Below, piece after piece: positions 24,001 to 27,000 of a stretch of DNA of 35,104 nucleotides. The stretch is from Actinobacteria bacterium UBA7524. Lineage in GTDB: Bacteria; Actinomycetota; Coriobacteriia; Anaerosomatales; UBA912. A program made the position numbers. Location of the stretch: assembly GCA_002478275.1 (NCBI GenBank), contig DLMY01000053.1:90347-125450 (forward strand). Direction: 5' to 3'. The first letter of the stretch is position 1; each line of letters opens with the position of its first letter.

Positions 24001-27000
24001 GGCGGCGAGATCTGGTTCGAGGAGATGCAGGTCAACGACCGCCACACGAACATCAACAAGGTCCGCGAGCGCATCGGGATGGTGTTCCAGTCCTTCAACC
24101 TGTTCCCGCACCTGACCGCAAAGGGCAACGTGATGCTCGCTCAGCGAAAAGTCCTCAAACGCTCGAAGCATGAGGCTGAGCGCATCGCGGTCGAACAGCT
24201 CACTCGCGTGGGGCTAGCCGACAAGATCGACAACTTCCCGGTCCAGCTCTCCGGCGGCCAGCAACAGCGTGTCGCGATCGCCCGTGCTCTGGCGATGGAC
24301 CCGCACGTCATGCTCTTCGACGAGGTCACCTCGGCGCTCGATCCCGAGCTGGTGCGTGGAGTACTCGATGTCATGAAGGAACTGGCCCGGGGCGGCATGA
24401 CGATGCTCGTCGTCACCCACGAGATGGGTTTCGCCCGCGACGTGGCCGACAGGGTCGTCTTCATGGACGAGGGCGTCATCGTCGAGCAAGGCACGCCAGA
24501 GGAAGTATTCGATAATCCGCAGCATGAGCGGACGAAGGATTTCCTCGGCCATATCAGTTAGCCGCTGCGCCGCGAGATCAGCTGCAGCGGGCACGGTCGC
24601 AATCCGCTACCATGGGTATCTTCTACGTACGGACCATCTCACAAGGAGGAAGTCATGGACATGATCATCAAGGGCCGTCACATGGCGGTCACAGAGCCCA
24701 TCCGTGACTACGCGCAGGAGAAGATCGGCCGCGTCACCAAGATCATCGACGGTGACCACATGAAGGCGGAAGTAGAGCTGTACGCCGAGAGGAATCCGGC
24801 CATCGAGAACGGGCACGTCGCCGAGGTCACCGTGTGGACCAAGGGGCCCGTGATCCGTGCGAAGGAAGCATCGACTGACATGTACGCTGCGATCGACCTG
24901 GTATCTGAGAAGCTCGAGACGCAGTTTCGCAAGTACAAGGGCAAGAAGATGGACCGGTACTCCGGCAAGCACATGCCGCCGCCGCTGCCGGTGACCGAGA
25001 TCCTGGAGCCCGAAGAGACCGAGCCGAGCATCGTCAAGACGAAGTCCCCCGCCGTCAAACCCATGACTGCCGAGGAAGCCATCTTGCAGCTGGAGCTGCT
25101 CGGGCATGACTTCTTCGTGTTCACGTCAGCGGAGACGGAGCAGGTCAGTGTGTTGTATCGGCGCAACGACGGCGACTACGGACTGATCGAGCCTCGGGTG
25201 AGCTAGTCCGTCAGGAGCGCTCAGGGGTTTCTGTTGCTGTGGCGGGCCTTCGGGTCCGCCACAGTGGTTCTCGGGTGGGGCGGGAAGTATCACCTGCGAA
25301 GTGCGCTTTCACTGTGACGAATAGCACAATACGACGGAATACGGTAATCTTCCTGCAAGCCCTTGAAACTCAGTCGTAGCAGATGCCGCAGCAGTACTAC
25401 CGCCGAAGCAAACAGGGGGGCCCCGATGGACCAGCAGACATCTCGGCTATCCGTTGAGGATATCGAGATCACACTCGGGCAAGTCGCCGAGATCAAGGCC
25501 GCGCGCGTGGTCGCCTCTCCAGAAGGTGTGATACAGGAGATCCACGTACTCGCGCTCCCGAACAAGACTCCCAAGCAGCTGGTCAGGGACATCGAATCCA
25601 CTTTGATGGCGACATACGGTCTTGTCGTCGACCACAAGAAGATCTCCATCGCACAGCTCGGTACCGACGTTGTGGCGATCGAACCCGAGCCGTCCCAGCC
25701 TGTTCAGTCACGCGCTCGTATCGTCGAGATCAACGCGAACGTCAACGGCGCGTATGCGGCCGTGGCCGTCACGCTGAAGCTCGAGCACGACGTGTATGTC
25801 GGCGAGGCTTCGGGCCCCGCGAGTCAGACGGGCCGCATGCGACTGTTGGCGCGTGCGACACTTGACGCGGTCGATCAGTATCTGCATGGTACGTATAGCT
25901 TCGATCTTGAAGACGTATCGATCATTCAGCTTGGTAAGGAGAGGGTCGCAGTCTCCTGCATCACGATCGTCACCCCGATGGGGGAGCAGTCGTATGCGGG
26001 CTCGGCGCTCGTGAGACAGAATGAGAAGGATTCCATAGTTCGGGCGACGCTTGATGCGATAAACCGTCGCCTTGGCTGCTTGACAACCACATAGACGATT
26101 TCGGCCAGGGCCAACGCCGTGTGCAAATCAGAAGACACTGTACGCAACAAACCGAGCGGAGCGGACAGCGTTCTTCCATTACTAGCGGAATGGGAGAAGA
26201 CCACAGTTCCAAGAGGGAGGTCTTCTCAACATGAAGCGAATCATATTTCTCCTCAGCTCGCTCGCAGCGGTTCTTTACGCTGGCGGGGCGATGGCGCGAC
26301 TTTAGTCATTCCAGTCATGAGCAGGTTGCAGCGGTTGGCCCTCAGTTTCCGTGAAGAAGGAGTGGAGTCATGAGAGTCAGACTCTACTCCTTCTTCGTGT
26401 TCTTGGTTGCATGCTGCGCGGTTGTGGCTCTGTACCTTCGGGAACCGTTGCCTGACTTTCGTCTGGTACTTGTCATGGGGATCATGGCATTGGCCGCTGA
26501 GTCACTGGCCTTCAGGCTACAGCATGGCGGCACCGTGTCACTCATGTTCGCAGTTGCCTTTGCTGCCGTGCTATTGGGTGGACCGACTGCCGGAGTCGTG
26601 GTGGCAGTTGCAGGAGCTGCGCCACCGGCGGACTTCATTGAGAGGAAGCCAGCGTATGCGATGCTATTCAACCTGTCGCAGCTCGCTCTTGGGGCCGCTG
26701 GCGCTGGGACGGCGTATCAGCTTCTTGGGGGAGTACTGTTGTATCAGCCGGGCGTTTCTCCCCCGCCCGTAACTCAGTGGATAGTGGCCGCGCTTCTTGC
26801 CGCTCCCATCTACGCTTTGATCAACTTGGGATTGGTCACGGTTGCGGTATCCCTGAAATGCGGCCTGCCCTTGTCCACTGTCTGGAAGAGCTATCAGGCC
26901 TACTACGTCAGGAGCCTCCTGCCCCTGACGTTGCTTGGACTGGTGCTGGCACAGCTGATCGCGGTTGCTGGACTGCCCTATGCTCTGCTCCTCCTAGTCC

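What a model noticed while it worked through the whole genome (the two positions that open the first line are those of the whole stretch)
26133..26233. Order-wide conserved leader RNA before HD-GYP operons (riboswitch candidate)
A ~100-nt non-coding element, with a ~65-nt block that is almost invariant across the order Anaerosomatales, lies upstream of two operons of this genome that start with a 24-codon hydrophobic mini-ORF followed by a membrane HD-GYP (HD_5) protein, a second HD protein and DUF5317. I read it as an undescribed cis-regulatory RNA, most likely a riboswitch whose 3' hairpin hides the ribosome-binding site and competes with an upstream hairpin, controlling c-di-GMP (or a related signal nucleotide) breakdown. 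New: an orphan riboswitch class with no Rfam family, restricted to one actinobacterial order.
Evidence so far: Copies: C30:116479-116579(+) before g00992 (MASE9+HD_5)-g00993 (HD)-g00994 (DUF5317); C12:7125-7222(-) before g00336-g00335 (HD_5)-g00334 (DUF5317). The mini-ORFs MKRIIFLLSSLAAVLYAGGAMARL and MKRIAFLLASLAALVIGGGAAWKM start a few nt after the hairpin GAGAAGAC-N-GGUCUUCUC, which contains the GGAGG/GGGGG Shine-Dalgarno; GGGAGAAGA can instead pair with UUCUUCCAU. blastn of 156 nt hits 116 of 146 order genomes (89 of 98 good ones) at 72-88% identity, mostly one copy. CM R2 hits 63 of 67 sampled Anaerosomatales and 0 of 83 other Coriobacteriia. 51 of 101 positions are invariant in 27 sequences. 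Changes in stems are A-U to G-U (cols 35/75 nine; 98, 100, 101 three each) or compensatory U-A to C-G (8 [...]
(Added by a program. Inside this text positions count along the whole contig: contig position 90,347 is position 1 of the stretch shown here. "Call 12" and the like, gene names such as g00115 and contig names such as C1 are that model's own, and its searches are not shown. The text may have been shortened before it was handed on; [...] marks where a part breaks off. The agent that wrote the report below was given it as the finding of a first reader that could run no searches.)

Follow-up and report, generated by a model that had tools for sequence, protein, structure and literature searches.

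The report
Conserved leader RNA before HD-GYP operons
A strongly conserved, folded stretch of messenger RNA that hides the ribosome-binding site of a tiny membrane-protein gene at the head of a c-di-GMP-phosphodiesterase operon is real, undescribed, and found in several classes of Actinomycetota rather than one order; what switches it is still unknown.

Summary
The element at 26133-26233 is real, nearly invariant, and has no Rfam match. It sits before a 24-codon ORF, a MASE9/HD-GYP gene, a second HD gene and DUF5317.

The tools add four things.

1. It is a plus-strand RNA structure. Helix P1 covaries at 9 of 9 pairs across 54 distinct sequences.
2. The ~100 nt are the core of a ~300-nt domain (26107-26399). 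A covarying long-range helix, A/A', closes it and encloses both the leader and the whole mini-ORF. A second strong hairpin holds the HD-GYP start.
3. The mini-ORF is a real, conserved gene for a 24-26-aa membrane peptide.
4. The motif is not confined to one order. Divergent members with the same downstream genes occur in at least three further classes: 13/21, 8/10 and 21/48 genomes, and 26/150 of a phylum sample.

What stays invariant is two or three AGCG(G) units and the P1 hairpin. The way the Shine-Dalgarno is hidden differs between lineages.

An unannotated 222-aa gene, up222, almost always lies beside the RNA, either co-directional or divergent.

A translational switch is well supported. 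A small-molecule riboswitch is plausible but unproven (~0.3), and a protein effector is equally likely. The c-di-GMP guess has no direct support.

The parts
25426..26094 (+). up222: a conserved 222-aa gene of unknown function, syntenic with the RNA.
26107..26119 (+). A arm: the 5' strand of the long-range helix A/A'.
   Evidence: It pairs with 26328-26342. 11 of 16 column pairs show two standard pair types that differ on both sides, in 75 sequences. Distant loci have the helix with different sequence.
26134..26145 (+). P0 5' strand (GACACUGUACGC).
   Evidence: It pairs with 26161-26172. Cells are 95-97% paired. Two loci carry wholly different complementary sequences: L045 has CGCA/UGCG and L079 has GAGUUCU/AGAACUC.
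26155..26164 (+). Tandem AGCGGAGCGG, in or at the P0 loop.
   Evidence: AGCG and AGCG are invariant in 82 near sequences. They are also invariant in 39 near plus far sequences.
26165..26172 (+). P0 3' strand (ACAGCGUU). It abuts and overlaps the P1 5' strand.
26171..26198 (+). P1 hairpin: UUCUUCCAUU, loop ACUAGCGG (26181-26188), then AAUGGGAGAA.
   Evidence: 9 of 9 pairs show compensatory changes across 54 distinct sequences. 118 cells changed on both sides against 36 in shuffles (0 of 500 shuffles as high). 90.5% of cells are paired. The loop AGCG is invariant in the order.
26194..26227 (+). P2, the SD-sequestering hairpin: GAGAAGACC, a variable loop, then GGUCUUCUC. The SD GGGAGG is at 26215-26220.
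   Evidence: 96.9% of cells are paired. The loop is variable in sequence and length (13 to about 45 nt). L073 has one compensatory outer pair. P2 is part of the minimum-energy fold in 80 of 80 sequences.
26231..26305 (+). Mini-ORF encoding a 24-aa hydrophobic peptide.
   Evidence: Entropy at codon positions 1/2/3 is 0.80/0.28/1.42 over 79 ORFs, and lengths are 24-26 aa apart from one of 30 aa. Related peptides are present in the distant lineages.
26328..26342 (+). A' arm: the 3' strand of the long-range helix.
26350..26399 (+). Strong hairpin holding the SD and the start codon (in its loop) of the HD-GYP gene.
   Evidence: Comparable hairpins with unrelated sequences are seen in many, but not all, families.
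26370..27659 (+). MASE9 + HD-GYP (HD_5) membrane phosphodiesterase gene.
27580..28851 (+). Second HD-domain protein. These are ORF limits; the true start is probably later.
28852..29412 (+). DUF5317 membrane protein.

Best explanation
This is a cis-acting translational control domain of an mRNA.

The sensor. It consists of AGCG(G) units, two in tandem and one in the loop of hairpin P1, displayed on adjacent hairpins P0 and P1.

The control step. Directly 3' of the sensor, the Shine-Dalgarno of a conserved 24-26-aa membrane micro-protein gene is locked in a helix. In this window and its order that helix is P2. Its 5' strand is also the outer 3' strand of P1, so there are two exclusive folds:
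- P0-long + P1-short + P2, with the SD hidden. This is the ground state.
- P0-short + P1-long, with the SD free.

The trigger. A factor that recognises the AGCG units decides which fold prevails, and so whether the micro-protein is made.

The wider domain. The leader plus the mini-ORF are closed by a long-range helix, A/A'. The next gene (HD-GYP) has its own start locked in a hairpin just 3' of A', so I infer that its expression follows from events in the enclosed domain.

Shown:
- the helices and their covariation;
- the SD occlusion in predicted folds;
- the coding nature of the mini-ORF;
- the distribution and the synteny.

Inferred:
- that the two folds interconvert in the cell;
- that the AGCG units are the recognition site;
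- the coupling to HD-GYP.

The effector is unknown. My odds are about 0.3 for a small molecule (a true riboswitch), about 0.3 for a protein (the linked 222-aa protein is the best candidate, ~0.2), and the rest for ribosome-driven, standby or processing mechanisms.
For: - It is RNA, and on the + strand. P1 covaries at 9 of 9 pairs. A/A' covaries at 11 of 16 pairs and recurs with unrelated sequences in 29 of 33 distant loci at z<-2. A conserved U-G pair and A-to-G changes are tolerated only on this strand. Helix arms are kept while the P2 loop varies from 13 to about 45 nt, which argues against a DNA operator.
- SD occlusion. P2 is in the minimum-energy fold of 80 of 80 order sequences. In 33 distant leaders the SD is at least 4/5 paired in 18. 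Its main partner is either the 5' flank of the tandem AGCGG (14) or the P1 3' flank (14). So the sensor is conserved while the expression platform varies.
- The AGCG units are invariant. No conserved complementary partner was found nearby: at most 34 of 76 sequences share one at any position.
- The mini-ORF is under purifying selection as a peptide.
- The downstream HD-GYP gene is present in 40 of 40 distant loci.
Against: - No transcript data could be obtained, so the transcript ends and expression are unknown.
- The open fold is 7.6 +/- 2.3 kcal/mol less stable than the closed one in 80 of 80 sequences. An effector must pay that cost, or the alternative pairing may only tune how easily ribosomes open P2.
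- Within the order, the outer P1 pairs show no double changes, and two loci (L047, L048) have a C-A mismatch there.
- In the lineages where the SD pairs with the 5' flank of the sensor, folding of the sensor would favour closure. In the P2-type lineages, P1-long favours opening. A single regulatory logic is therefore not established.
- The covariation counts were made on alignments fitted to the model's structure.
Confidence: 0.7

Rival explanations
1. A true metabolite riboswitch. A small molecule binds a pocket made by the AGCG units, for instance through loop-loop contact of their self-complementary GC cores. That stabilises one fold and switches translation of the micro-protein and the HD-GYP operon. 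The ligand could be c-di-GMP, a breakdown product, or something unrelated.
For: - Unpaired nucleotides are invariant while the stems covary.
- The sensor is the same but the SD-hiding arrangement differs between lineages.
- The downstream gene class is consistent, with HD-GYP in 40 of 40 distant loci.
- There is no Rfam match.
- The genome has at least 8 GGDEF loci, so c-di-GMP is made.
Against: - There is one locus per genome in nearly all genomes.
- The copy number and placement of the AGCGG units vary: one plus the loop copy, tandem only, or three in a row. That is unusual for a fixed ligand pocket.
- The core is two or three hairpins with no evident multi-helix junction.
- No binding test was possible, and no feature of known c-di-GMP aptamers was found.
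Confidence: 0.3
2. A protein-operated leader. A multimeric RNA-binding protein recognises the repeated AGCGG units, as CsrA, TRAP or HutP recognise repeated short motifs. It either locks or opens the SD helix. The best candidate is the co-inherited 222-aa protein up222, whose C-terminal domain resembles an amino-acid-binding regulatory domain.
For: - up222 lies within 1.5 kb of the RNA in 36 of 40 distant loci, co-directional in 18 and divergent in 18. It is adjacent in nearly all order loci.
- In the class sample its per-family tallies are identical to those of the RNA.
- The motif is repeated, with variable number and spacing.
- A second AGCGGAGCG sits at the HD-GYP start in several distant loci.
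Against: - up222 matches no known RNA-binding family.
- G382 (98% complete) has the RNA, the mini-ORF and HD-GYP, but no up222 was found.
- G405 has an up222-like gene but no RNA.
- Gene linkage may reflect a shared pathway rather than regulation.
- CsrA itself was found in only 2 of 5 RNA-bearing genomes.
Confidence: 0.3
3. A constitutive or ribosome-driven structure with no dedicated effector. The hairpins keep the expression of a membrane micro-protein and of HD-GYP very low. The GGAG-containing AGCGG units act as ribosome standby sites. The A/A' helix is opened by ribosomes finishing the upstream gene, or is an RNase III processing site. This resembles the folding control of type I toxin mRNAs: a small hydrophobic ORF, 5'-3' pairing and a hidden SD.
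For: - The hidden-SD fold is the ground state in 80 of 80 sequences.
- The A arm starts 2-17 nt after the upstream stop codon in the order, within reach of a terminating ribosome.
- The whole small hydrophobic ORF is enclosed by a long-range helix.
- AGCGGAGCG serves as the apparent SD of HD-GYP in some lineages.
Against: - It does not explain why A, G, C and G, and not only GGAG, are invariant over several classes.
- The locus is single and syntenic, not mobile or multicopy like type I toxin loci.
- In lineages with a divergent up222 no upstream cistron exists, yet A/A' is kept.
- No antisense promoter or terminator was seen.
Confidence: 0.2
4. A DNA-level element (promoter plus operator) rather than an RNA.
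For: - Sequence conservation is very high.
- Inverted repeats are present.
- In lineages with a divergent up222 the region must contain promoters.
Against: - Compensatory changes keep the helices while their sequences differ completely.
- G-U pairs work on one strand only.
- The spacing between the arms is variable.
- No sigma-70-like site was found in 24400-26700: 0 found, 0.7 expected.
Confidence: 0.04

Closest known systems
Translational riboswitches with an SD-sequestering expression platform (generic kind)
   Same: Both have a conserved sensor with invariant unpaired nucleotides and covarying stems. In both, a helix hides the SD and shares a strand with the sensor. Both keep the sensor while the expression platform differs between lineages.
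   Different: No ligand is known. There is one locus per genome. The sensor is made of repeated short units whose number and placement vary. The regulated ORF itself is enclosed in a long-range helix.
Guanidine-II (mini-ykkC) riboswitch (recalled; not tested beyond the Rfam scan)
   Same: Both have small adjacent hairpins carrying the same short loop motif with a self-complementary dinucleotide core, and both control the SD.
   Different: The loop motif here is AGCG(G) in 8-15-nt loops, not ACGR tetraloops. There was no Rfam hit. The downstream genes are unrelated.
CsrA/RsmA-type and TRAP/HutP-type protein-bound leaders (recalled)
   Same: Both have several copies of a short G-rich motif (here containing GGA), in hairpin loops and single strands near the SD, with variable number and spacing.
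   Different: CsrA was found in only 2 of 5 RNA-bearing genomes. The whole AGCG is invariant, not just GGA. The candidate protein, up222, belongs to no known RNA-binding family.
Type I toxin mRNAs such as hok, tisB and aapA1 (recalled)
   Same: Both have a small hydrophobic single-helix peptide ORF, a hidden SD with alternative hairpins, and long-range 5'-3' pairing that encloses the ORF.
   Different: This locus is a single syntenic copy conserved over classes and embedded in an operon with HD-GYP. The peptide is conserved in sequence. No antisense RNA is evident.
c-di-GMP-I/II riboswitches (Rfam)
   Same: Both are associated with c-di-GMP turnover genes.
   Different: There is no sequence or structure match at E<=10 or at E<=1 in 8 loci. 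The architecture is different.

Membership tests
Riboswitch (any class) | Conserved RNA secondary structure supported by covariation. | tested here: met
   P1 covaries at 9/9 pairs. A/A' covaries at 11/16 pairs. P0 occurs in three sequence versions.
Riboswitch (any class) | An expression platform that overlaps the sensor. | tested here: met
   The P2 5' strand is the outer 3' strand of P1, and P2 contains the SD. Distant lineages use other platforms.
Riboswitch (any class) | Direct, specific binding of a small molecule. | not testable with these tools
Riboswitch (any class) | A fixed arrangement of the conserved nucleotides across members. | tested here: inconclusive
   The arrangement is fixed in 54 aligned sequences. 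In more divergent loci the AGCGG units differ in number and place.
c-di-GMP-I / c-di-GMP-II and all other Rfam 15 families | A match to the family covariance model. | tested here: not met
   Nothing was found at the element at E<=10. There were 0 hits at E<=1 in 8 homologous loci.
CsrA-bound leader | CsrA encoded in the genomes that carry the RNA. | tested here: not met
   PF02599 was found in 2 of 5 genomes. It was not found in G000 (83% complete), G238 (99%) or G278 (88%).
CsrA-bound leader | Multiple GGA motifs, one at or near the SD. | tested here: met
   AGCGGAGCGGA and the loop AGCGGA/AGCGGGA all contain GGA, and the SD is GGGAGG.
Type I toxin-antitoxin mRNA | A small hydrophobic ORF with a hidden SD and long-range 5'-3' pairing. 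| tested here: met
Type I toxin-antitoxin mRNA | A cis- or trans-encoded antisense RNA antitoxin. | not testable with these tools
   No transcript data were available. No promoter-like site was found on either strand.
Type I toxin-antitoxin mRNA | A free-standing, often multicopy and poorly conserved locus. | tested here: not met
   The locus is a single syntenic copy inside hpf-up222-miniORF-HDGYP across an order and further classes.
Leader-peptide transcription attenuator | A leader ORF with regulatory codons, followed by a terminator/antiterminator pair that overlaps it. | tested here: not met
   The peptide is conserved as a membrane helix with no run of one codon. No U-tract terminator overlaps it. 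The only terminator-like hit inside it is a weak 5-bp stem.
ANTAR dual-hairpin target (recalled definition) | Two hairpins with hexaloops carrying A at position 1 and G at position 4. | tested here: not met
   The loops are 8 nt (P1) and 13-23 nt (P0).

The most novel reading that the evidence does not exclude
The AGCG-repeat leader is a new, phylum-wide sensory RNA class that couples a cellular signal to c-di-GMP breakdown.

Two forms of this reading are open:
- It is a riboswitch whose pocket is built by self-pairing of identical AGCG units.
- It is the operator of a new family of ligand-sensing RNA-binding proteins (up222). Its LeuA-like domain would then tie amino-acid status to the translation of a membrane micro-protein and an HD-GYP phosphodiesterase.

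In either form, enclosing the entire small ORF in a covarying long-range helix would be a new way to couple translation of a micro-protein to the gene behind it.
Probability: 0.3. Interest if true: 0.85.

Novelty: new variant of a known kind. Interest (0 to 1): 0.72.

Why it matters
HD-GYP enzymes with membrane sensor domains are widespread, yet almost nothing is known about how they are controlled. The one studied MASE9 member was reported as poorly expressed (bioRxiv 10.1101/2021.11.05.467447, passages read).

This work points to a conserved RNA device, a conserved micro-protein and an unannotated 222-aa protein that travel together with such enzymes. They do so through several deep, mostly uncultured classes of Actinomycetota.

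The result gives a concrete and testable entry point. The RNA is ~100 nt with sharply defined invariant nucleotides. That makes it suited to finding either a new riboswitch ligand or a new RNA-binding protein family, and to learning what the micro-protein does.

It also explains a practical nuisance: metagenome assemblies tend to break at this element.

Tried and rejected
- RNA-seq evidence. The look-up of sequencing runs on window 24600-28900 listed no RNA holder.
The peptide's range outside the loci I fetched is therefore unknown.
- Trans-target idea (a dual-function sRNA with an AGCGGAGCGG seed). The complement CCGCTCCGCT occurs 9 times on both strands of the genome. My own estimate from base composition is about 12 expected, and 2 of the 9 are the element itself. 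There is no enrichment, so I dropped it.
- Conserved intramolecular partner for the AGCGG units. None is present at a fixed place in more than 34 of 76 sequences, and those cases reflect Leu/Ala codon composition. Rejected.
- G-quadruplex from the GG tracts. Rejected, because GG is not invariant (AGCGA, AGCGU and AGCGC variants).
- Sigma-70 promoter inside or just upstream of the element. None was found. The TTGACA at the end of up222 has no -10 partner and becomes CTGACA in several families.
- Hairpin at the HD-GYP start. My energy metric did not separate it well from a coding control region (median -33.5 against -26.1 kcal/mol; <= -25 in 52 against 46 of 76). I therefore describe it only qualitatively.
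- 'Absence' in 5 order genomes. In G056 the contig ends inside HD-GYP, and in G050 DUF5317 sits on short contigs. These are assembly gaps, not losses.
- Literature. Searches for Anaerosomatales, DUF5317, MASE9, 'HD-GYP' + 'riboswitch candidate', the motif letters, and 'small protein' + HD-GYP + leader found nothing describing this RNA (listings and abstracts seen, passages of one preprint read).
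Full report
**1. What is at the coordinates**

- GAGAAGACC (26194-26202) is the exact complement of GGUCUUCUC (26219-26227).
- The Shine-Dalgarno GGGAGG (26215-26220) lies in the loop and 3' arm of that hairpin.
- ATG 26231 opens a 24-codon ORF (26231-26305, MKRIIFLLSSLAAVLYAGGAMARL).

Downstream genes:
- a 429-aa MASE9 + HD_5 protein with an intact HHERIDGTGYP motif;
- a second HD protein;
- DUF5317;
- a BTAD/AAA regulator.

Upstream, ending 13 nt before the structured region, lies a 222-aa gene (25426-26094, here 'up222'). It has no Pfam or NCBIfam match. Before it lies hpf.

Rfam gives nothing at the element at E<=10 and nothing at E<=1 in eight homologous loci. The only Rfam hit in the window is an unrelated raiA RNA at 20234-20475.

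**2. Conservation within the order**

- blastn with 216 nt finds 117 of 146 genomes of the order and 90 of 98 good ones.
- A covariance model, R1, was built from 82 distinct sequences. It finds 64 of 67 sampled order genomes plus the window's own genome. It finds 0 of 83 genomes from the other families of the class.
- 32 of 118 positions are invariant and 35 more are at least 90% conserved.

Five order genomes without a match also gave no up222 match. I looked further at two of them. In G056 the contig ends inside HD-GYP, and in G050 DUF5317 lies on short contigs. These are assembly gaps.

**3. It is an RNA, and larger than 100 nt**

Alignment of about 90 loci shows this order of parts:

up222 stop | A arm | P0 | P1 | P2 with SD | mini-ORF | A' arm | hairpin with the HD-GYP start.

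*The A/A' helix.* The A arm (26107-26119; consensus GGGCCAACGCCGUG) is the reverse complement of the A' arm (26328-26342; consensus CACGGCGUUGGCCC). A' lies 6-27 nt after the mini-ORF stop. In 75 sequences, 11 of 16 column pairs carry two standard pair types that differ on both sides. Examples are G-C 36 / A-U 27 and A-U 46 / G-C 21. 83% of cells are paired, against 75% in shuffles (maximum 77%). So a long-range helix closes a domain that holds the leader and the whole mini-ORF.

*P0.* ACACUGU pairs with ACAGSGU and carries the tandem AGCGGAGCGG in its loop. It is 95-97% paired. Two loci replace it with unrelated complementary sequences: L045 has CGCA/UGCG and L079 has GAGUUCU/AGAACUC.

*P1.* UUCUUCCAUY pairs with RAUGGGAGAA around the loop RCUAGCGG. 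It is 98% paired, with a covarying closing pair (C-G 44, U-G 19, U-A 14).

*P2.* It is 97% paired. Its loop varies from 13 to about 45 nt. That variable spacing, a conserved U-G pair, and A-to-G changes that pair only on this strand all argue against a DNA operator.

*Promoter.* No sigma-70-like promoter was found in 24400-26700 (0 found, 0.7 expected). In this window the element is therefore most simply an intercistronic part of an hpf/up222/mini-ORF/HD-GYP transcript. There are no transcript data, since no RNA holder was listed.

**4. Two folds**

The strand GAGAAGA belongs both to the outer part of P1 and to P2.

Constrained folding of 80 order sequences shows that the P2 fold is the minimum-energy fold in all 80. 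That fold is P0 extended by GRAC/GUUC, a short P1 (CCAUY/RAUGG) and P2. It is 7.6 +/- 2.3 kcal/mol more stable than the P1-long fold that frees the SD.

So the ground state hides the SD. Something must pay to open it: a ligand, a protein or a ribosome.

Within the order the outer P1 pairs change only by G-U-compatible substitutions, and two loci have a C-A mismatch. On order data alone the alternative pairing would be weakly supported.

**5. The mini-ORF is a gene**

Over 79 ORFs (80 found, one divergent one set aside), the entropy at codon positions 1/2/3 is 0.80/0.28/1.42. Lengths are 24 (54 ORFs), 25 (21), 26 (4) and 30 (1).

The peptide pattern is M-K-R-I-x-h-L-L-[AS]-S-L-A-A-L-V-L-[SG]-G-G-A-x-h-[KR]-h, where h is hydrophobic.

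This is a conserved single-helix micro-protein, not a codon-sensing leader peptide.

**6. The HD-GYP start**

In the window, a 20-bp hairpin (26350-26399) holds the SD in its 5' arm and the ATG in its loop. Many families have a hairpin in the same place with unrelated sequence, though not all do. My energy comparison with a coding control did not separate them cleanly, so this stays a qualitative observation.

**7. The motif is not restricted to the order**

R1 gave 11 weak hits (27-37 bits) in a 150-genome phylum sample. Inspection showed they are true relatives. Each has:
- the same AGCGGAGCG;
- a P1 hairpin with a UAGCGG loop but entirely different stems (CUCCAGGU/ACCUGGAG, CUCUCGC/GCGAGAG, UCUCUCUA/UAGAGAGA, CUUCGU/ACGAAG);
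- a related small ORF (for example MKRIFGLLAAIASVFLAAGASASWR);
- an HD-GYP gene.

A second model, R2, built from near and far members, finds the motif as follows:

| Group searched | Genomes with the motif |
|---|---|
| Class of G238 | 13 of 21 |
| Class of G250 | 8 of 10 |
| Class of G275 | 21 of 48 |
| Phylum sample, outside the own genome | 26 of 150, in nine families |

On 54 distinct sequences, P1 shows compensatory changes at 9 of 9 pairs, including the outer ones. 118 cells changed on both sides against 36 in shuffles (0 of 500 as high), and 90.5% of cells are paired. This alignment is fitted to the model, which favours the structure.

In 40 distant loci:
- HD-GYP follows in 40;
- a small hydrophobic ORF is found by simple criteria in 33;
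- up222 lies within 1.5 kb in 36: co-directional in 18 and divergent in 18.

The A/A' helix recurs with unrelated sequences in 29 of 33 loci, at z<-2 against shuffles.

Still more divergent variants were missed by R2 and found downstream of up222 homologues. In these the AGCGG units differ in number and place: one copy plus the loop copy, a tandem pair without the loop copy, or three in a row.

**8. How the SD is hidden differs**

In 33 distant leaders, the SD's main partner in the minimum-energy fold is one of two things:
- the pyrimidine stretch just 5' of the tandem AGCGG, giving one long irregular hairpin (14 leaders);
- the 3' flank of P1, giving a P2-type hairpin as in the window (14 leaders).

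A conserved sensor with a changeable platform is what riboswitches and protein-bound operators both look like. It is the strongest argument that the AGCG units plus P1 are a recognition module.

It also raises a problem. In the first type, folding of the sensor favours closure. In the second type, P1-long favours opening.

**9. Who reads the AGCG units?**

No conserved complementary partner exists nearby. The genome shows no excess of the complement.

*Small molecule.* This is possible. The identical units have a self-complementary GC core and could contact each other, as the loops of the guanidine-II riboswitch do (recalled). But one locus per genome and a variable unit number are atypical for a riboswitch.

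*Protein.* The repeated, GGA-containing units recall CsrA, TRAP or HutP sites (recalled).
- CsrA itself is found in only 2 of 5 carriers.
- up222 is the gene most tightly linked to the RNA, in both orientations.
- Its AF2 model (pLDDT 81) has a ferredoxin-like N-domain.
- Against it: G382 (98% complete) keeps the RNA and has no up222. G405 has an up222-like gene without the RNA.

*Ribosome or processing.* The A arm starts 2-17 nt after the upstream stop codon in the order. The units contain GGAG. The overall design resembles type I toxin mRNAs (recalled). This does not explain the invariance of the whole AGCG.

**10. Verdict**

- 'Cis-regulatory RNA that hides the SD' is well supported (0.7 with the switch).
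- 'Riboswitch' remains a candidate reading (about 0.3), on a par with a protein-operated leader.
- 'c-di-GMP' is a guess. The genome does make it, with at least 8 GGDEF loci.
- 'One order only' is refuted.
- I found nothing in Rfam 15 or in the searched literature that describes this RNA.

Noticed in passing
Relatives' contigs, e.g. G137:C17:161-295, G134:C71:21-148, G145:C57:21745-21810, G034:C143:6308-6423: At least 23 of the 123 blastn matches lie within about 300 nt of a contig end. Twelve are judged from low coordinates and eleven from contig lengths. Some 'two-copy' genomes (G145, G034, G106) are really one locus split at the element. The likely cause is that the invariant core is shared by co-occurring strains and breaks metagenome assemblies.
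   Followed up: partly
G000:C12 (8,062 nt; locus L002): The 'second operon' is a whole contig that contains only the module up222-leader-miniORF-HDGYP-HD-DUF5317-BTAD. It is closer to loci of another family (74-76% identity over 3.5-4.1 kb) than to the window's copy (794 nt at 69%). It may be a mis-binned contig or a transfer.
   Followed up: partly
window 20234-20475 (+): A raiA RNA (RF03072, 157 bits) lies about 4 kb upstream of hpf, separated from it by ABC transporter genes.
   Followed up: no
window 25426-26094; model mb1fb5db99271: up222 belongs to a large family of unannotated ~220-aa proteins: 831 and 543 hits in two searches, some labelled Acidimicrobiia or Actinomycetota by their sources. 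Its C-domain is like the LeuA regulatory domain. Atlas look-alikes are labelled Bacillota and Gemmatimonadota.
   Followed up: partly
L117, L118, L121, L123, L125, L142 (distant loci), about 210-240 nt after the first tandem motif: A second AGCGGAGCG sits immediately before the HD-GYP start, apparently serving as its Shine-Dalgarno. The same unit therefore marks both translation starts in those lineages.
   Followed up: partly
window 29438-32761 (+): A 1,107-aa AAA/TPR/BTAD regulator follows DUF5317. It is syntenic in most loci of the order and in many distant loci.
   Followed up: no
L124, L117, L118, L125 (class of G238), just upstream of the A arm: A short sequence resembling the C-terminal codons of up222 (…TTGAMAACCNCATAR) precedes the RNA, although the recognisable up222 gene there is divergent and about 0.8 kb away. 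It may be a remnant of, or a second, small gene.
   Followed up: no
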